64,000 nt of DNA from the sequence record OZ346205.1; one strand, written 5' to 3'. A program made the position numbers and the translations under genes. The notes beneath the pieces were generated by a model that saw only the letters and a list, made by a program, of their open reading frames with translations, was not told where the DNA came from and did not search any database. This document shows, one piece after another, positions 4,376-61,555 of the stretch. Position 1 is the first letter of the stretch, and each line of letters begins with the position of its first letter. The DNA comes from a phage.

Positions 4376-6799
4376 ATGAGTATGTGGTCTTTCGATTTTG
4401 AGTCATCCGGTTTGCTGGAAGACCCAGATCTTTATTATCACTGCGGTCTGTTTAAAGAGCTGAATAAGAACCGTTTTATGCTGTTCCTTCCTCTAAATGA
4501 CCGCACACACTACTCCGAGGAGGATATAGAAAAGGCTAAGAACTTCATTCTGTCAAAGAAAACTCTTTATAAAGATTTTGAAGTTCGCATAGCAGATTTT
4601 TCGGAGTTGGAAGGTTGGCTTACAGGCAATTCTGACTGGTCACCAACAGCTTTGAACTGCCATAACTGCTACAGTTATGACTTTATGCTAATGGAAAGAT
4701 TATCCGGTATTCATTTTGATATGTTCCGTGATCCTAAATGCATGGGGACTATCAACGACCACCAGGTTAACCTGTTTGATACGTTGGCTATGAGCCGAAT
4801 CTTGTGGCCTGATCGCCCTTTACCAAAAGGTTGTCCGGACGCTGTATTCAACCCGGTTACTAAGAAAATGCAACCTGTTGGTCCTCACGGCCTTATGGCA
4901 TGGGGCTACGCCCTTGGTAACCAGAAAGTTCAAATTGATGACTGGCGCGATCTTCCGTTGTGGAAGTATGTGGATCGTGTATTCGAGGACGTTATCATCC
5001 AGGAGCTGCTCTGGAAAGAGCTGGTAGCGGAATCAAAAGGTGTATTCTACGGCAAATCTGACATGCAGAACTTTATGTACGATCCAGCCAAAGAGAAGCC
5101 GAAAGGGTTCAAGAAGATCACCTGGAAGAACGCATTACGTCGAGGCATGCTGCAGCACTTCCTGATGGAGCTGCAGGCCCGTCAGGGTGTATACTTCGAC
5201 ATAGATGGAGCTATTGCTTTACGTGACCGTTGCGATGCGTGGATGAAAGAAATCGCTGATCGTGTTGAACCACAACTACCTTTAAAAGAGCTGTCAATGT
5301 CTCAGCGGCCCAAGTTCCCTGAAAAGCCGTTTAACCAAGACGGGACAATCTCTAATAATGGTTGGAAATGGTTAAAAGATAAGCTTGGCTATCCTGTAGA
5401 CATGAGTGCTTTAGAGTTCAAAGCCCCGCCTAAGCGAGCATTTACCTCTACAGGAGATGTCAGCAAGATGGGGATAAAATGGTGTGAAGAGATGGGCTGC
5501 AAAGACCCCGATAAGATGGCTGATTTCTTGAGAGGCTATATTAAGGGCACCTCCACACCACAACCCTTACCTAAAGAGCTGATGGATCAGGCAATAAGTG
5601 ATCTGCAGCAGAAGCGAATGCCTGACTGCAAGATACCTATGAAAATCAGCAATCAGGACGACATCAAGCGATACCTAATCAGTGCTGGTTGGCTCCCAAC
5701 AATGTGGAGAACTAAAGATGTAACTAAAGACAGCAAGAAGAAAGCTTTACCTGATGCAGATGTTGATGCACGAGTATATGCATATATGGACGAGCTTTTG
5801 GAGTCAGAGTATTGTGACCTAATTATCAACTTCTGGAACAAAACTGATGCTAAGTTCCAGACAACCGTGCACAAGTTCCGAAGCTTTCCTAACTCCGAAA
5901 GGATTAAAAAGGAAGTATTCGGGAAAATACGTAGAAAAGCCAGGGCACTTATTACTTCTCCGCAACTGAAAGATACGTTTGGACACCTATGCCCAAATCT
6001 TGAAAAATTGAACGGAGAGATGGCTAAAGATATCGTCTTGTGGTTATCATTGCGAAACCGCAGATCGGTCCTTGATCCAATCAAGGAGGATAAGGTTGAT
6101 ACTGGTCTTCTTAATCACCCACGTTTGAAGATTGACCATAAGCTTCCTGCTAAAAGCTCTGGATTAACAAACACTTCCAGACAGAAACACAGTATTTGTG
6201 CAAACATGCCTAAACCATCTCCTAAAGTGGTTATGGGTAAAGAGATGCGTAGTCTGTGGGGTGTTCCTCCGGGATACTTTGAGATCGGTATTGACGGGTC
6301 CAACTTAGAGCAGCTTATCGGGGCTTGGGGTGCCTTTGAGTTCGACAACGGCCTGTATTATGATGTTGTAAGTAACGGAGACGCACACCAAAACAATGCT
6401 GAGGCATATACAAAAGTGGCAGGCAGAGAGGTGTCCCGTAACGACGGTAAACCTATCACGTATGGGGTTATGTACGGGGCACAAAAAGATAAAGTTGCAG
6501 ATATGTTGGACATCTCCCCAGAGTTGGGACAAAGGGTAATCGATGCACTCTGGGATGCCAACCCAGGTCTTAAGGGGCGCAAAGAGGATCTGGAGAAATT
6601 CTGGGAAGCAACAGGTAAGAAGTTTATCTACTCTTTTGATGGTCATGCTATCTGGACCCGATCTAAACACTCTTTACTTAATGCATACCAACAAAATGGC
6701 GGTGCATCGTTGTGTGACTTAGTTGGAATACTCATGCACCACCAGATGGTGAAGCGTGGGTGGTACGATGAAGGTGTTCGTCGTATTATTTATTACCAT
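4376..6799 (+). CDS. DNA polymerase, family A (Pol I-like), exon 1
   Basis: 3'-5' exo motif FDFESSG; motif A IDGSNLEQ; motif B R..GKPITYGVMYG; frame ends ...RRIIYYH just before motif C. Confidence 0.8.
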
Positions 6800-7075
6800 A
6801 AATAACATTGTGGCTTCATAGAGTAATCTATGTCGAATAACCTCTTTAACTGCGGGAAGCCTAAACCTTATGGCAAGGTAATCCGCAACGAAGCGCTCAA
6901 AAGAGCGAACGCTCAGAGGCCATTCCGAAAGGAAGTAGACCAGCAAGTGCGGTCGAAATGGGAGGATTCCTGTGGTTGCTTATCATAGGAATATGAGATG
7001 GTCCGATCCTACGTGAAAACGTATGGCTATGCACGTAATGGTGCGGGGTAGCTTAACGACCTACCTGAACTATTG
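6800..7075 (+). mobile_element. group I intron (no ORF) splitting DNA polymerase motif C
   Basis: P-like ACTGCGGGAAGCC (6848), Q-like AATCCGCAACG (6880), S-like GAGATGGTCCG (6995); follows exonic U, ends in G; exon junction YYH|DE restores motif C. Confidence 0.65.
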
Positions 7076-7987: not shown

Positions 7988-8178
7988 AAGTAAAGTATCT
8001 TGCTGAAGGTATGAATAGGTATTTTACCCTTGGTGAAGAATATTGGCCCTTTACAAACAACGGCGATGTCTACGTGAAAGATAATTTCGGCACGCCGTGG
8101 TTTCTGCACTCTAATGGGCTGGGATACTCCATTTACTGCGGTGCAGTGAACAACACAACTCTTGCAGAGTTCGTTTAG
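7984..8178 (+). CDS. hypothetical protein
   Basis: Coupled start; GAAGAGGA RBS. Confidence 0.5.
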   Translation: MKVKYLAEGMNRYFTLGEEYWPFTNNGDVYVKDNFGTPWFLHSNGLGYSIYCGAVNNTTLAEFV

Positions 8179-8188
8179 AGGAGGTAGG

Positions 8189-8560
8189 ATGTTAGTAAAA
8201 GGTACCCACACAGTCAAACAACGTATTGAAGTTGAGATTGATGATTGTGAGCTGAAGCATATTTTACGGTCATGCTCCAACGTTTTGCTCCTTAGTATTC
8301 TTCAGGAGCGAGCGGAGAACGAGTTCTTAAATGCATTGGCAGGCCGTCCCGGTGACTTCTGTGTGCGTAAGCGTGGTGACAACAAGTCGTGGTTGTGGGA
8401 GATCGATGCCGACTGGGATTACCACAAAAATGAGGGTATAGATGAGCCTATTCGTGAACTGACGGACAAAGAGATTCAGATGTACAATGAAGTTTGTCAT
8501 TGGGCAACACGCCAACAAATTTACCTAGACCCTGTGTGGCTGATTGAAAATAGTCGTTGA
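8189..8560 (+). CDS. hypothetical protein
   Basis: ATG 8189 preceded by AGAGGAGG; track start 8162 is TTG. Confidence 0.55.
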   Translation: MLVKGTHTVKQRIEVEIDDCELKHILRSCSNVLLLSILQERAENEFLNALAGRPGDFCVRKRGDNKSWLWEIDADWDYHKNEGIDEPIRELTDKEIQMYNEVCHWATRQQIYLDPVWLIENSR

Positions 8561-17443: not shown

Positions 17444-17848
17444 ATGAATAAGAACGTACGCCGCATCATGAACGAACTGGCAAACGATGAAAAAATTATT
17501 GACATGCATTTGATCAACATTTGCCGCCGTTGTGTAACATACAACAACCGCGCCGCAAAAGCGCGTGAGATGAACGCAAAAGGCACCTTAAAGCCATTCC
17601 AGGTGGTGGTAAAGGCCATTAAAGATGTAACTAATACGGCAAACCAGGTACAGGGGAACACCAACGAGAGTACCAATATTGATCCGGCTTACATCATGAA
17701 ACGGATCCGGACCTGCAAGAACAAAGAGCAAGTGTATAATGTCATAGACTGGTTGGATTCTATGGGCGATGTGGTGTACAATAGATTCTCGGCAGCTATT
17801 GAGATCCAGCTTGACAGGTTAGACGGTAAAGTACTTAAAACTTACTAA
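17444..17848 (+). CDS. hypothetical protein
   Basis: AAAGGA RBS. Confidence 0.55.
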   Translation: MNKNVRRIMNELANDEKIIDMHLINICRRCVTYNNRAAKAREMNAKGTLKPFQVVVKAIKDVTNTANQVQGNTNESTNIDPAYIMKRIRTCKNKEQVYNVIDWLDSMGDVVYNRFSAAIEIQLDRLDGKVLKTY

Positions 17849-17859
17849 ATTTATTTTTA

Positions 17860-17883
17860 GATGGCCTTGACTCCAGGGCCATC
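17860..17883. repeat. palindromic element GATGGCC-N10-GGCCATC (copy 1)
   Basis: Directly after stop codon; loop holds TTGACT; followed by AATAAAGTAAAT. Confidence 0.6.
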
Positions 17884-17928
17884 AATAAAGTAAATTAATC
17901 TCAGCTAAGCGAAAAAGGGGGCTTTAAG

Positions 17929-18048: not shown

Positions 18049-18076
18049 TTGACAAGCTAACTTAGATTGATATACT
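18049..18076 (+). promoter_or_regulatory. sigma70-like promoter
   Basis: TTGACA - 16 nt - TATACT. Confidence 0.55.
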
Positions 18077-18127: not shown

Positions 18128-18469
18128 ATGACTACTATGGCCGCCGCAGAAAAAGCTATTCAGATCGCCGCACTGAAAAAACAGATCGCAGACCTTGAGA
18201 ACAAGATCGATAACTTTGAAATCGACGAGGACAAGTACGACGAAAACTATGATGAATGGTTAGACGAGATCTACGGCGAAATTATGATCGGAAACATTTC
18301 TTTTCTTCCGTCGCGTATCCTCAAGGAGCTAGATCCTATCGCTTACCGCTGCGGATTTAGCGACTACATCGACAGCCTGGATATTGAGGACGATGAAGAA
18401 TACCAGGAATTACAGACAGAGTTAGAAGAAGCAAAAGAAGAGCTTGCAGAACTGGAAGAAAACGAGTAA
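18128..18469 (+). CDS. hypothetical acidic protein
   Basis: AAAGGAGA RBS; leader hairpin GGGAA-AAC-TTCCC at 18090. Confidence 0.55.
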   Translation: MTTMAAAEKAIQIAALKKQIADLENKIDNFEIDEDKYDENYDEWLDEIYGEIMIGNISFLPSRILKELDPIAYRCGFSDYIDSLDIEDDEEYQELQTELEEAKEELAELEENE

Positions 18470-18480
18470 GATTATTTTTA

Positions 18481-18504
18481 GATGGCCTTGACTCCAGGGC
18501 CATC
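18481..18504. repeat. palindromic element GATGGCC-N10-GGCCATC (copy 2)
   Basis: Same sequence as copy 1, directly after stop of 18128..18469. Confidence 0.6.
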
Positions 18505-18558
18505 AATAAAGTAAACTTTATACTGTTAACACTGAACTAATGCATAGGAGTTAAAACC

Positions 18559-18804
18559 ATGGCAGCACTAATCACCAAATATTATGCCCCTACCAACACC
18601 AAAAGCGCCCGTATCATGGTAAAAGGCTTCGGACGTAAAAAGGTGTACACCTGGGATTATGCCTTAGACACGGAAGACAACTACACCAACGCGATGACCG
18701 ATTTTATTAATGATCTGAACACGCGGATCTTGACAAATTATAAAATTACCGATATTGCCTATATAGGGGAAGGCGGGATCTGTTTTGTCGGTATCGTCAA
18801 ATAA
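18559..18804 (+). CDS. hypothetical protein
   Basis: TAGGAG RBS. Confidence 0.5.
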   Translation: MAALITKYYAPTNTKSARIMVKGFGRKKVYTWDYALDTEDNYTNAMTDFINDLNTRILTNYKITDIAYIGEGGICFVGIVK

Positions 18805-18879
18805 GCTGTTTTTTCGGTGGTCCTGGTAGCAGGGCCATCTATAAAGATAGTTTATCAATACAATGAAAGGAGAAAGTAC

Positions 18880-24904: not shown

Positions 24905-24940
24905 CCCACAAATAATTACAAACCTTCCTTATCGAGGAAG
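24905..24940 (-). terminator. rho-independent terminator ending the minus-strand block
   Basis: On - strand: CTTCCT-CGATA-AGGAAGG followed by TTTGTAATTATTTG. Confidence 0.5.
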
Positions 24941-24959: not shown

Positions 24960-25229
24960 TTATTCCTCTACAATCTCATACACATCAGGAGTTACAATCA
25001 ACTCTTCTCCGTTACCCGGTGCAATAAACACCACCAAACCTTCAGGTGTGTGCTTTTTAGCCATCTCGATAACATCTTCCCGCAGGGCTGGCTCCATCAG
25101 ATCAAAACCTTCACCCAGGGCATCACGAACCACCTTCATATAGTCCACTGGTTGTGCTTCAACAATCATGCCTTCAACCAGACCACAATTTTTGTCTGCC
25201 AGCTCAGTTTTGAATAATTTAATTTTCAT
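24960..25229 (-). CDS. hypothetical protein (MKxK..L paralogue family, divergent member)
   Basis: GAGGAGA RBS; N-term MKIKLFK, C-term IVEE as in paralogues at 26486, 26730, 30387. Confidence 0.5.
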   Translation of the reverse strand: MKIKLFKTELADKNCGLVEGMIVEAQPVDYMKVVRDALGEGFDLMEPALREDVIEMAKKHTPEGLVVFIAPGNGEELIVTPDVYEIVEE

Positions 25230-25255: not shown

Positions 25256-25357
25256 TTAATAGCCGTAACCTAACACATTAACTACAACTGCGATTGCAAA
25301 CATAATTTCAAAGCATGCAATCTCTACATTTGGGACTAATTTCTTGATCACACCCAT
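25256..25357 (-). CDS. small hydrophobic peptide (33 aa), candidate
   Basis: GAGGTG RBS; fills gap between HPF and next gene. Confidence 0.3.
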   Translation of the reverse strand: MGVIKKLVPNVEIACFEIMFAIAVVVNVLGYGY

Positions 25358-25366
25358 TGTAGCACC

Positions 25367-25684
25367 TCATTCTCTAAAGTCAATCTTTACTTTGCCTTTC
25401 CCCTTACCTTTCTTTCCACCGCATTTAGCCAGTTGACGTGCTGCAACATCTACCATACGGTCAGTTGCCTCGTAAGCATCACTGCCTTTAGCTTTGGCAA
25501 TAACTTCTTTTCCAGAATTGTCAAAAATGAACGCCATAACTTCCTGGTGATCATTTTCAACTTTTACACTCACACGTGCATAGTTGGCAGAGGGATGCAA
25601 ACGCTCCAGCTTAGACATTTTGTGGGAAATGAAAGACACCATACCTTCAGGGATTTCTACGTTGCCAGTGATTTCAATTTGCAT
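25367..25684 (-). CDS. hpf: ribosome hibernation promoting factor / RaiA (YfiA) family protein
   Basis: MQIEITGNVEIPEG...KLERL...VSVKVEND...AKAKGSDAYEATD...ARQLAK aligns along its length with bacterial HPF/YfiA. Confidence 0.75.
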   Translation of the reverse strand: MQIEITGNVEIPEGMVSFISHKMSKLERLHPSANYARVSVKVENDHQEVMAFIFDNSGKEVIAKAKGSDAYEATDRMVDVAARQLAKCGGKKGKGKGKVKIDFRE

Positions 25685-25703
25685 AACGTGTTCCTTTTAA
25701 AGA

Positions 25704-25722
25704 AGAGGGAACCAAACCCTCT
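25704..25722 (-). promoter_or_regulatory. leader hairpin / bidirectional terminator-like stem
   Basis: AGAGGG-AACCAAA-CCCTCT between promoter and HPF RBS. Confidence 0.4.
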
Positions 25723-25731
25723 TTGAAAACA

Positions 25732-25760
25732 ATGATACTAAATCTGAAGCGTTGTGTCAA
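25732..25760 (-). promoter_or_regulatory. sigma70-like promoter for hpf
   Basis: - strand TTGACA - 17 nt - TATCAT. Confidence 0.55.
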
Positions 25761-60742: not shown

Positions 60743-60817
60743 GCCCTGTTAGCTTAGTGGATAAAGCAGCGGCCTTCTAAGCCGTTGACACTGGTTCGAG
60801 TCCAGTACGGGGTGCCA
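60743..60817 (+). tRNA. tRNA-Arg (anticodon UCU)
   Basis: Cloverleaf by eye: acceptor GCCCTGT/ACGGGGT, anticodon loop CTTCTAA, T-loop TTCGAGT, encoded CCA. Confidence 0.8.
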
Positions 60818-60821
60818 AATT

Positions 60822-60908
60822 GGGGAGTTATCCCGTAGAGGTAGCGGTGTAGACTGTAAATCTATTGTCATTGCGACTCGGGTGGTTCGACTCCACCACT
60901 CCCCACCA
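60822..60908 (+). tRNA. tRNA-Tyr (anticodon GUA)
   Basis: Acceptor GGGGAGT/ACTCCCC, anticodon loop CTGTAAA, long variable arm, T-loop TTCGACT, CCA. Confidence 0.75.
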
Positions 60909-61022
60909 AATTTATATTTTTAGATGCATAAATAATACAGATAATGGCATTGATATTTATCGTCGTTTATACTAGTCACTAACTGCTCGAAAATCAGTGT
61001 CATTATCAGTATAATTTATAAA

Positions 61023-61113
61023 GGAGGGTAGGGAGCAATGGTGCTCAAGCGGTATTGAAAACCGTCCCGTTGAGGATGACTCGATGATGGTTCGATTCCA
61101 TTACTCTCCGCCA
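61023..61113 (+). tRNA. tRNA-Ser (anticodon UGA)
   Basis: Acceptor GGAGGGT/ACTCTCC, anticodon loop ATTGAAA, long variable arm, T-loop TTCGATT, CCA. Confidence 0.65.
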
Positions 61114-61211
61114 CATTGTTGACCTTGTAATTAAGCGAAAGCCGGAAGCAGAACCGGATTATCAAATGTTACAGTCGTCATCGCCGACTAGCAACATGGT
61201 CAACATACTGA

Positions 61212-61310
61212 GCTAGGTAAGCCCTTTGGCAAGGGCGAGGATTTTTAATCCTGAAAATAGACGAGGTAGTCGTTGAATACATAGGTGGTTCGATTCCATC
61301 ACCTAGCACC
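61212..61310 (+). tRNA. atypical tRNA-like gene (99 nt; anticodon loop TTTTTAA, UUU?)
   Basis: Acceptor GCTAGGT/ACCTAGC, D-arm GCCC...GGGC, T-arm GGTGG-TTCGATT-CCATC, but 30-nt extra region and imperfect anticodon stem. Confidence 0.4.
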
Positions 61311-61315
61311 TTTTT

Positions 61316-61391
61316 GCTGATGTAGCACAATCGGTAGTGCAATTGATTTGTAATCAATAGGTTGTAGGTTCAAGTCCTGCCATCAGCACCA
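61316..61391 (+). tRNA. tRNA-Thr (anticodon UGU)
   Basis: Acceptor GCTGATG/CATCAGC, anticodon arm ATTGA-TTTGTAA-TCAAT, CCA. Confidence 0.8.
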
Positions 61392-61392
61392 A

Positions 61393-61467
61393 GGCCCTGT
61401 AGCTGGAAGGTTCAAGCAAGCGACTCATAATCGCCAGACGGTGGTTCAATTCCACCCAGGGCCACCA
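61393..61467 (+). tRNA. tRNA-Met (anticodon CAU; could be Ile-lysidine type)
   Basis: Acceptor GGCCCTG/CAGGGCC, anticodon loop CTCATAA, T-loop TTCAATT, CCA. Confidence 0.75.
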
Positions 61468-61478
61468 AATAGTAAATA

Positions 61479-61555
61479 CTCCGCGTAGCTCAGCTTGGTA
61501 GAGCGCCTGATTTGGGATCAGGAGGTCGAGTGTTCGAATCACTCCGTGGAGACCA
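61479..61555 (+). tRNA. tRNA-Pro (anticodon UGG)
   Basis: Acceptor CTCCGCG/CGTGGAG, D-arm GCTC...GAGC, anticodon arm CCTGA-TTTGGGA-TCAGG, T-loop TTCGAAT, CCA. Confidence 0.8.

What the first reader, a model, noticed from the sequence alone, without database searches (positions are those of the whole stretch)
25367..25760. Phage-encoded ribosome hibernation factor (HPF/RaiA) homologue with its own promoter
The 105-aa protein aligns along its whole length with bacterial HPF/YfiA and is preceded by a TTGACA-N17-TATCAT promoter and leader hairpin. A phage copy of a ribosome-silencing factor implies direct manipulation of host ribosome activity, for example shutting down host translation or preserving ribosomes.
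Basis: partly seen in the sequence, partly recalled or inferred. Interest (0 to 1): 0.6.

Follow-up and report, generated by a model that had tools for sequence, protein, structure and literature searches.

The report
Known rV5 phage ribosome-hibernation-factor gene
This E. coli phage carries its own diverged copy of a bacterial protein that parks idle ribosomes; the gene and its promoter are real and strongly conserved, but both were already annotated and published, and what the protein does during infection is still unknown.

Summary
Window 25367..25684 (minus strand) encodes a 105-aa protein that passes the curated thresholds of Pfam Ribosomal_S30AE and TIGR00741. [quoted passage not shown] A TTGACA-N17-TATCAT promoter lies directly upstream and is conserved in every relative examined. 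The "leader hairpin" exists but folds no better than shuffled sequence and is not conserved.

The finding is not new. The window is an rV5-like Vequintavirus. The rV5 GenBank record annotates both the gene (ORF 144) and the promoter (P144). Mizuno et al. 2019 (Nat Commun) described the phage HPF and tested it: expressed in E. coli, it was not recovered in high-salt-washed ribosomes and did not change 100S levels.

What I add:
- Strong purifying selection on the core (pN/pS 0.08).
- A syntenic orthologue at 64% identity in a sister phage lineage, so the gene is old.
- A remodelled ribosome-contact surface and a variable basic tail.
- The published negative test is uninformative, because host HPF and RMF were also absent from those ribosome preparations.
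- Host YfiA was missing only from ribosomes of cells expressing the viral protein, a weak hint of competition for the same site.

Verdict: already known; function still open.

The parts
25367..25684 (-). hpf-like CDS, 105 aa plus stop (orthologue of rV5 ORF 144 / gp139)
   Evidence: ORF list. Pfam, TIGR and PDB matches. 98% identical to the rV5 protein. pN/pS 0.083 over the core in 12 copies.
25421..25684 (-). Core S30AE domain, residues 1-88 (beta1-alpha1-beta2-beta3-beta4-alpha2)
   Evidence: AlphaFold2 model with core pLDDT about 90. Foldseek top 35 PDB hits are all HPF/YfiA/pY, best rmsd 1.0-1.4 A. Family-invariant K22, D69, Y71, D75 and D79 are retained.
25370..25420 (-). C-terminal Lys/Gly-rich tail, residues 89-105 (GGKKGKGKGKVKIDFRE), net charge +5
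   Evidence: Predicted disordered, pLDDT below 50. Length and frame vary among relatives but the tail stays basic. The sister lineage has an unrelated basic tail.
25732..25760 (-). Sigma-70-type promoter TTGACA-N17-TATCAT (equivalent to rV5 'P144')
   Evidence: 11/12 match. Annotated in NC_011041 as 'Sigma70-type promoter; P144'. Conserved in 12 copies and in the sister lineage. One of 21 such sites against 1.7 expected.
25703..25723 (-). Stem-loop near the 5' end of the predicted leader (7-bp stem, 7-nt loop); weak, probably incidental
   Evidence: dG -9.9, z = -0.52 against shuffles. Degraded in some relatives. Absent from the sister lineage. Not picked up as a terminator.
25692..25696 (-). 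Shine-Dalgarno-like AAGGA, 7 nt upstream of the ATG
   Evidence: Read directly from the sequence. Conserved in the aligned leaders.
25256..25357 (-). 33-aa hydrophobic small ORF immediately downstream, probably co-transcribed (rV5 gp140)
   Evidence: Annotated in rV5 and relatives. No significant Pfam hit. Absent from the sister lineage.
24960..25229 (-). 89-aa ORF downstream, probably the last gene of the unit; mislabelled 'sigma 54 modulation factor' in some records
   Evidence: No Pfam hit and no similarity to the HPF-like protein. A terminator-like hairpin follows at 24940..24924 on the minus strand.

Best explanation
The gene encodes a diverged short-HPF-type protein that is a fixed, old resident of rV5-like phages.

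Host RNA polymerase transcribes it from a near-consensus sigma-70 promoter, so it is made early in infection. This is inferred from the promoter type and from its position in the block of small early genes.

The protein most likely binds reversibly, in a salt-labile way, in the decoding channel of the 30S subunit (A/P-site region) of ribosomes that carry no mRNA or tRNA. This is the site used by the host's HPF and YfiA/RaiA. Binding is inferred from fold, retained key residues and selection; it has not been shown.

By occupying that site it would compete with the host factors, above all with tightly bound YfiA. Idle ribosomes would then be held in a protected state that can be reactivated quickly, which suits a phage infecting slow-growing or stationary gut E. 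coli. The extended basic, disordered tail would add non-specific affinity for rRNA near the mRNA channel; this is speculative.

It is not a general translation poison.
For: Family membership:
- Pfam and TIGRFAM scores above curated cutoffs.
- E. coli HPF is the best solved relative.
- The modelled fold superposes on V. cholerae and E. coli HPF at 1.0-1.4 A, and all 35 significant PDB hits are HPF/YfiA/pY.
- Family-invariant residues are kept.
- Ribosome-contact residues K23, K26, D75, R83, K87 and K91 (E. coli numbering) are kept.

The gene is functional:
- pN/pS is 0.083 with pS up to 0.5.
- It is present in 118 phage records, as widely as both flanking genes, and is better conserved than the upstream neighbour.
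- A syntenic orthologue at 64% identity exists in a sister lineage.

Expression: the conserved consensus-like promoter.

Competition hint: in the supplementary mass-spectrometry tables of PMC6375957, host YfiA is present in high-salt ribosomes from cells expressing viral bS21 or bL12. It is absent from the 71 proteins found in ribosomes from cells expressing the rV5 HPF, although it is abundant in that culture's crude extract. YfiA and HPF share one binding site and compete (PMC13152769).

Not toxic: cells grew under continuous induction.
Against: The only direct test found no viral HPF peptides in 70S/100S fractions and no change in 100S abundance.

About half of the named HPF-ribosome contact positions are replaced in both phage lineages: Y30L, H55F, K80V/T, K89G/S, K93G, T53F/R. 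These include the T53/H62 motif that contacts m2G966 and the H55 contact with uS9.

The protein scores far below the NCBIfam equivalog cutoff for E. coli-type HPF (52 against 125).

The YfiA observation rests on one sample per condition of presence/absence shotgun mass spectrometry, and the authors did not comment on it.

No infection-stage expression data or deletion phenotype exist in the searchable literature.
Confidence: 0.45

Rival explanations
1. Ribosome preservation. The protein binds idle host ribosomes as a classical hibernation factor. Its value to the phage is to shield 16S rRNA (decoding centre and 3' end) from host ribonucleases or ribosome-targeting defence toxins once host mRNA has collapsed. 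The ribosome pool then stays intact for late phage protein synthesis. It does not act by displacing YfiA.
For: The family, fold and selection evidence is the same as for the best explanation. Hibernation factors are reported to protect ribosomes from RNase R and other nucleases (abstract of PMC8406268; PMC13152769). The phage also invests in translation capacity, with seven tRNA genes in the window.
Against: There is no direct evidence. This model does not explain why host YfiA is missing from ribosomes of expressing cells. The host already has HPF, YfiA and RMF, so the added value of a diverged copy with a remodelled contact surface is unclear.
Confidence: 0.2
2. Neofunctionalised. The protein keeps the S30AE fold but no longer binds ribosomes. 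It serves another early-infection role, for example binding another RNA or a host protein, or counteracting a defence system.
For: No peptides were found in ribosome fractions and there was no effect on 100S. Contact residues are replaced consistently in two lineages while the gene is under strong purifying selection. The protein is below the HPF and RaiA equivalog cutoffs. Its own PHROG family is listed as 'unknown function'. Weak fold resemblance to dsRNA-binding domains and to a phage anti-CBASS protein appears far down the Foldseek list (ranks 39-50).
Against: The negative ribosome test cannot discriminate, because host HPF and RMF were stripped too. The residues that are invariant across the family, and R83/K87/K91 of the rRNA-binding helix, are retained. 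No other family or defence-related profile matches. The selective loss of YfiA fits binding at the ribosome site.
Confidence: 0.2
3. Host shut-off. The protein blocks the decoding centre of host ribosomes to shut down host translation early in infection.
For: HPF/YfiA-type proteins occupy the A/P-site region and inhibit translation in vitro (established knowledge). The gene is expressed from an early-type promoter.
Against: Binding at this site cannot tell host from phage mRNA and is limited to vacant ribosomes. E. coli grew overnight and to OD 1 under continuous arabinose induction of the viral protein, with normal 70S profiles.
Confidence: 0.08

Closest known systems
E. coli short HPF (YhbH; PDB 2RQL, 6H4N, 4V8H) and V. 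cholerae HPF (4HEI)
   Same: Same family and fold, and about the same core length. Best sequence match (39-44% identity) and best structural match (rmsd 1.0-1.4 A). Retains K23, K26, D75, R83, K87 and K91. Lacks the C-terminal dimerisation domain of long HPFs.
   Different: Scores 52 bits against the 125-bit equivalog cutoff. Contact residues Y30, T53, H55, K80, K89 and K93 are replaced. Carries a 16-17-residue Lys/Gly-rich disordered tail instead of KDKLKQH. It is phage-encoded and driven by an early sigma-70 promoter, not by stationary-phase control. No effect on 100S was seen when it was expressed.
E. coli YfiA / RaiA (protein Y)
   Same: Same fold and the same binding site as HPF. Like YfiA, the phage protein has a flexible C-terminal extension beyond helix alpha2. 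In YfiA that extension runs toward the RMF site and prevents 100S formation.
   Different: The sequence is clearly HPF-like and not RaiA-like: NF007654 scores 14 bits against a cutoff of 158, and YfiA structures rank lower. The tail is unrelated in sequence, strongly basic, and not conserved in length or frame among phages.
rV5 gp139 / ORF 144 and the 'viral HPF' of Mizuno et al. 2019
   Same: The same gene: 98% amino-acid identity, the same position and the same promoter.
   Different: The window copy has two private substitutions, T12P and G104R.
Other phage S30AE genes (Cronobacter phage GAP32, Xanthomonas jumbo phage XaC1; phrog_8990)
   Same: Phage-encoded HPF/YfiA homologues in large myoviruses.
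   Different: These are separate, much more distant acquisitions. tblastn with the window protein does not detect them at E below 1e-5. Only 130 of 50,697 phage records hold any HPF-like gene, and 118 of those are Vequintavirus.

Membership tests
Ribosomal_S30AE / HPF-YfiA family (PF02482, TIGR00741) | Profile match above the curated threshold over the whole domain | tested here: met
   PF02482 scores 46.0 bits (cutoff 23.7), residues 3-88 against profile positions 1-83 of 88. TIGR00741 scores 44.3 (cutoff 40.9).
Ribosomal_S30AE / HPF-YfiA family (PF02482, TIGR00741) | [quoted passage not shown] | tested here: met
   AlphaFold2 model with mean pLDDT 83.5: E2-7, H13-29, E33-42, E47-55, E60-67, H70-89. 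The top 35 Foldseek PDB hits are all HPF/YfiA/pY, with target-normalised TM scores up to 0.93. This is a predicted structure, not a solved one.
Ribosomal_S30AE / HPF-YfiA family (PF02482, TIGR00741) | Family-invariant residues (Lys in helix 1; D-x-Y...D...D...RQL in helix 2) | tested here: met
   K22 and D79 are invariant, and D69, Y71 and D75 are at least 90% conserved, in a 13-sequence alignment. All are present in the phage protein, and R83-Q84-L85 is kept.
Ribosomal_S30AE / HPF-YfiA family (PF02482, TIGR00741) | Binds the 30S decoding channel of 70S/30S ribosomes | not testable with these tools
   The published test on the rV5 protein was negative in ribosomes washed with 500 mM NH4Cl. Host HPF and RMF were also absent from those preparations, so the test does not discriminate.
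Gammaproteobacterial short HPF (NCBIfam NF007780 equivalog; works with RMF to make 100S) | Score above the equivalog cutoff | tested here: not met
   52.3 bits against a cutoff of 125. 39-44% identity to E. coli HPF.
Gammaproteobacterial short HPF (NCBIfam NF007780 equivalog; works with RMF to make 100S) | Conserved ribosome-contact residues (basic ladder 80/83/87/89/91/93; T53/H62 with m2G966; H55/E60 with uS9; Y30 stacking) | tested here: inconclusive
   Kept: K23, K26, Q29R, E44, D75, R83, K87, K91. Replaced in both phage lineages: Y30L, T53F/R, H55F, K80V/T, K89G/S, K93G (contacts taken from bioRxiv 10.1101/2025.10.07.680626).
Gammaproteobacterial short HPF (NCBIfam NF007780 equivalog; works with RMF to make 100S) | Promotes conversion of 90S to 100S dimers | not testable with these tools
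   [quoted passage not shown] These conditions are unsuitable for seeing 100S.
YfiA / RaiA (NCBIfam NF007654) | Score above the equivalog cutoff; YfiA-type C-terminal tail that occludes the RMF site | tested here: not met
   14.4 bits against a cutoff of 158. The tail is unrelated in sequence and variable among phage copies. Whether it reaches the RMF site cannot be tested here.
Long HPF (N-terminal S30AE domain plus C-terminal dimerisation domain) | C-terminal dimerisation domain | tested here: not met
   The protein is 105 aa, with no second Pfam domain. Residues 91-105 are predicted disordered.
Sigma-70 (housekeeping) promoter | -35 and -10 hexamers with a 17 +/- 1 nt spacer, upstream of the gene, conserved in relatives | tested here: met
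   TTGACA-17-TATCAT, 11/12. Invariant -35 and spacing in 12 copies. Retained in the sister lineage. Sites are enriched 12-fold over chance in the window. The transcription start has not been mapped, here or in the literature found.

The most novel reading that the evidence does not exclude
The phage HPF is an anti-hibernation factor and not a hibernation factor. It would be a low-affinity, fast-exchanging mimic that evicts tightly bound host YfiA (and perhaps HPF/RMF) from the decoding channel of dormant ribosomes. This would let the phage wake the translation machinery of slow-growing or stationary E. coli. The remodelled contact surface and floppy basic tail would be adaptations for rapid on/off binding. 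The selective absence of YfiA from ribosomes of cells expressing the viral protein, in the published supplementary data, would be the first trace of this activity.
Probability: 0.3. Interest if true: 0.6.

Novelty: already known. Interest (0 to 1): 0.25.

Why it matters
Phages rarely encode proteins of the ribosome-hibernation system: 130 of 50,697 phage records hold one, and 118 of those are this one genus. rV5-like phages are common virulent coliphages of the gut and are candidates for phage therapy.

If the protein really re-programmes dormant ribosomes, it would help explain how these phages replicate in slow-growing hosts. It would also be a natural tool for probing the exchange of hibernation factors.

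As a discovery, though, the gene, its family and its promoter have been public since the rV5 genome record and its 2013 description, and were highlighted and tested in 2019. The only open question is function. This analysis adds three things:
- a reason to discount the published negative result;
- evidence that the gene is old and under selection;
- a specific, cheap hypothesis to test, namely displacement of YfiA.

Tried and rejected
1. Leader hairpin as a regulatory element. Rejected: its energy is no better than shuffled sequence, it is degraded in some relatives and absent from the sister lineage, and it is not terminator-like.

2. A second S30AE gene two ORFs downstream, labelled 'sigma 54 modulation factor' in several records. 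Rejected: no Pfam hit and no similarity to the HPF-like protein. This is propagated mis-annotation.

3. Recent capture from the host, as suggested in PMC6375957. Not supported:
- only 39-44% identity to enterobacterial HPF;
- a syntenic orthologue at 64% identity in a sister lineage;
- GC content equal to the phage background.

4. The word-indexed protein search found only the protein's own cluster. The IMG/VR scan for the sister protein found nothing. P0006, a 1160-aa repeat protein in the exhaustive search, is a spurious repeat-driven hit.

6. Polikanov et al. 2012 could not be fetched. Contact residues were taken from a 2025 bioRxiv cryo-EM study instead.

7. Searches for functional, transcriptomic or deletion data on Vequintavirus hpf found nothing beyond the 2019 and 2020 papers.

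8. The overlapping plus-strand ORF at 25433..25726 was dismissed. The minus-strand frame carries the family match and the synonymous-biased variation.

Full report
WHAT IS THERE

Window 25367..25684 on the minus strand is an ATG-initiated ORF of 105 codons.
- It scores 46 bits against Pfam Ribosomal_S30AE (gathering cutoff 23.7) over residues 3-88.
- It scores 44.3 bits against TIGR00741, 'HPF/YfiA family' (cutoff 40.9).
- Its best solved relatives are E. coli HPF entries 2RQL, 4V8H and 6H4N, at E of about 1e-10 to 1e-11 over residues 1-89.
- It does not reach the equivalog cutoffs for E. coli-type HPF (52 against 125 bits) or RaiA (14 against 158).
- In PHROGs it belongs to its own family, phrog_12469, listed as 'unknown function'. 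Its match to the general S30AE phrog is only weak.

An AlphaFold2 model built on a 14-sequence alignment has core pLDDT of about 90. It shows the canonical beta1-alpha1-beta2-beta3-beta4-alpha2 topology, and residues 91-105 are disordered. Foldseek against the PDB returns 35 significant hits. All are HPF/YfiA/pY proteins, led by V. cholerae HPF (rmsd 1.0 A) and E. coli HPF (1.2-1.4 A).

PROMOTER AND LEADER

On the minus strand, TTGACA (25760..25755), a 17-nt spacer and TATCAT (25737..25732) lie between the stop codon of the upstream gene (25767) and the ORF.

The window holds 21 sites with at least 11 of 12 consensus matches, against 1.7 +/- 1.3 in first-order Markov simulations. This phage is therefore studded with near-consensus host-type promoters, and this is one of them.

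The -35 hexamer and the spacing are identical in 12 related copies, and the -10 is TATCAT or TATTAT. A sister lineage keeps AAACTGTTGACAC followed by N17-AATTAT with a TG extension.

The stem-loop at 25723..25703 is real (7 bp, -9.9 kcal/mol). However:
- it folds no better than shuffled sequence (z = -0.52);
- it is weakened to between -5 and -7 kcal/mol in several relatives;
- it is missing from the sister lineage.

I do not regard it as a supported feature. An AAGGA Shine-Dalgarno sequence lies 7 nt upstream of the ATG.

The likely transcription unit runs through a 33-aa hydrophobic ORF (25357..25256) and an 89-aa ORF (25229..24960) to a terminator-like hairpin at 24940..24924.

WHERE IT COMES FROM, AND PRIOR ART

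The window is an rV5-like Vequintavirus; the best match is phage WalterGehring at 99.3%. The protein is 92-99% identical in 118 phage records.

The rV5 reference record annotates the gene as ORF 144, 'similar to Klebsiella oxytoca probable sigma(54) modulation protein'. It also annotates the promoter as 'Sigma70-type promoter; P144'. The 2013 genome paper describes the promoter survey.

Mizuno et al. 2019 (PMC6375957) list the rV5-group HPFs among virus-encoded ribosomal proteins. They also tested the rV5 protein. When it was expressed from pBAD24 in E. coli NM522, its peptides were found in the crude extract but not in purified 70S/100S ribosomes, and 100S abundance did not change. The authors named growth phase, true loss of binding, or the salt wash as possible reasons.

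Mathieu et al. 2020 note the gene in five more rV5-like phages 'as already described'. I found no later functional, transcriptomic or genetic work. The finding is therefore already known in both of its parts.

WHAT THIS ANALYSIS ADDS

(a) The gene is under strong purifying selection. Over the 88-codon core of 12 copies, pN/pS is 0.083, and pS reaches 0.5 between the most distant pair.

(b) It is fixed in the genus.
- hpf is found in 118 phage records, the downstream neighbour in 118 and the upstream neighbour in 117, with the same organism breakdown.
- hpf is better conserved (at least 92% amino-acid identity) than the upstream neighbour (62-100%).

(c) It is old.
- An exhaustive HMMER search of 1.84 billion cluster representatives finds one close relative, P0005 (64% identity), and then only ordinary HPFs at 30-44%.
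- P0005 sits on contigs of 124-137 kb that share the rV5 gene order: PhoH, ClpP, the run of small ORFs, hpf, and the 89-aa gene. Its neighbours are 27-83% identical to those in the window.
- This lineage is absent from the isolate-phage collection.
- GC content matches the phage background (42.1% against 43.0%).

This argues against the 'relatively recent' transfer proposed in 2019.

(d) The ribosome-contact surface is remodelled, not simply conserved. I mapped the contacts reported for Gram-negative short HPFs (bioRxiv 10.1101/2025.10.07.680626) onto the alignment.
- Kept: K23, K26, Q29R, E44, D75, R83, K87, K91.
- Replaced in both phage lineages: Y30 to L, H55 to F, K80 to V/T, K89 to G/S, K93 to G, and T53 to F/R.

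(e) The C-terminal tail (GGKKGKGKGKVKIDFRE, net charge +5) is predicted disordered. It varies by slippage or frameshift: Murica is truncated, APCEc02 is frameshifted, and one copy has GKGKGKGK. It is basic in every variant. The sister lineage has an unrelated basic tail.

RE-READING THE PUBLISHED TEST

Cells were harvested at OD600 = 1, after overnight pre-culture and growth under 1 mM arabinose. Ribosomes were pelleted through 500 mM NH4Cl and 1.1 M sucrose. Two points follow.

First, the cells grew under continuous expression. The protein is therefore not a strong general inhibitor of translation.

Second, host HPF and RMF are both present in the crude extract (Supplementary Data 5) but appear in none of the three ribosome preparations. 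The protocol strips the host's own short HPF, so the absence of the viral protein says nothing about binding in vivo. High salt also dissociates RMF-dependent 100S, by established knowledge of these complexes.

There is also an unremarked difference. Host YfiA is listed in ribosomes from cells expressing viral bS21 (score 22.6, in a shallow dataset) and viral bL12 (score 137, 6 spectra). It is absent from the 71 proteins in ribosomes from cells expressing viral HPF. That dataset has a depth similar to the bL12 one, for example S4 at 538 against 483 and L4 at 499 against 508. YfiA scores 188 in that same culture's crude extract.

YfiA and HPF share one binding site and compete for it. Displacement of YfiA by a salt-labile viral HPF would give exactly this pattern. 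This is one sample per condition of presence/absence data, so it is a lead and not a result.

MECHANISM

My best-supported reading (confidence about 0.45) has four steps:
- The gene is transcribed early by host RNA polymerase.
- The protein binds reversibly at the HPF/YfiA site of vacant ribosomes.
- It competes with host factors, especially YfiA.
- The outcome is an idle-ribosome pool that is protected but can be mobilised quickly.

What is shown: family, fold, selection, promoter conservation and lack of toxicity. What is inferred: early timing, binding, competition and the benefit to the phage.

Rivals:
- A purely protective role against nucleases or toxins (0.2).
- Loss of ribosome binding with a new function (0.2).
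- Host shut-off (0.08), which is disfavoured by the growth data and by the inability of this site to discriminate between mRNAs.

COMPARISON WITH KNOWN FAMILIES

The protein is a member of the S30AE superfamily: the sequence threshold, the fold and the invariant residues are all met. It is closest to gammaproteobacterial short HPF but fails that equivalog cutoff, and it has a partly different contact surface. It is not RaiA-like in sequence, although it shares with RaiA a flexible C-terminal extension. It lacks the dimerisation domain of long HPFs. Ribosome binding and 100S promotion could not be tested here.

VERDICT

Novelty: already known. Interest is low to moderate, because the biological role is still open and a specific, testable lead now exists.

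Noticed in passing
window 6790-7025 (+), with ORF 4376-6805 (+): Rfam group I catalytic intron (RF00028, 64.7 bits against a cutoff of 50, full-length model) begins at the 3' end of an 809-aa ORF that has a family-A DNA polymerase match. This looks like an intron-interrupted DNA polymerase gene.
   Followed up: partly
window 60743-61555 (+): Cluster of seven tRNA genes: Arg-TCT, Tyr-GTA, Ser-TGA, Thr-TGT, Met-CAT, Pro-TGG, and an odd 99-nt tRNA-like gene at 61212-61310. ARAGORN reads the odd one with a four-base anticodon 'atcc', and Rfam scores it only 35.5 bits as tRNA.
   Followed up: no
window 24960-25229 (-): This 89-aa ORF is labelled 'sigma 54 modulation factor' in several GenBank records (nimi, nom, inoa, APCEc02, A6-1). 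It has no S30AE signal and no similarity to the HPF-like protein, so the label is a propagated annotation error. Other records label hpf itself 'ATP-dependent protease La type I'.
   Followed up: yes
supplementary tables of PMC6375957 (not a window coordinate; concerns the product of window 25367-25684): Host YfiA is detected in high-salt ribosomes of cells expressing viral bS21 or bL12, but not of cells expressing the rV5 HPF, although it is abundant in that culture's crude extract. Host HPF and RMF are absent from all three ribosome preparations.
   Followed up: partly
L012-L015 (gene at 8001-8312 of each locus): A sister lineage of rV5-like phages, on contigs of 124-137 kb including two in NCBI assemblies GCA_012894635.1 and GCA_034560175.1. 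It carries a 103-aa HPF orthologue (64% identity) in the same slot, with a different basic tail and no leader hairpin. It is not represented in the isolate-phage collection.
   Followed up: partly
window 17846-17894, 18467-18515, 18802-18850 (+): Three copies of a 49-nt element that contains the hairpin GATGGCCTTGACTCCAGGGCCATC. Each lies just after an ORF, so these look like repeated terminator-like modules. Nearby are three look-alike promoters (TTGACA-16-TATACT) at 18049, 19602 and 19914.
   Followed up: no
whole window: Near-consensus sigma-70 promoters (at least 11/12 matches) number 21 against about 1.7 expected, and they switch strand at about 24-25 kb. All but two plus-strand sites (57101, 60251) lie at 1-24 kb, and the minus-strand sites lie at 25-52 kb. 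This marks divergent early transcription units.
   Followed up: partly
phage records MG0656xx (for example L009 = MG065662.1): Eighteen 'UNVERIFIED Campylobacter phage' GenBank records are more than 95% identical to rV5-like coliphages across this region. Their host labels are probably wrong.
   Followed up: no
L004 (phage inoa) 1501-1800; L006, L007: Natural variants of the gene. Phage inoa lacks six N-terminal residues (a deletion between EIT repeats). Murica and APCEc02 have frameshifted or truncated tails. Phage typing phage 4 uses a GTG start. These could serve as natural structure-function mutants.
   Followed up: partly
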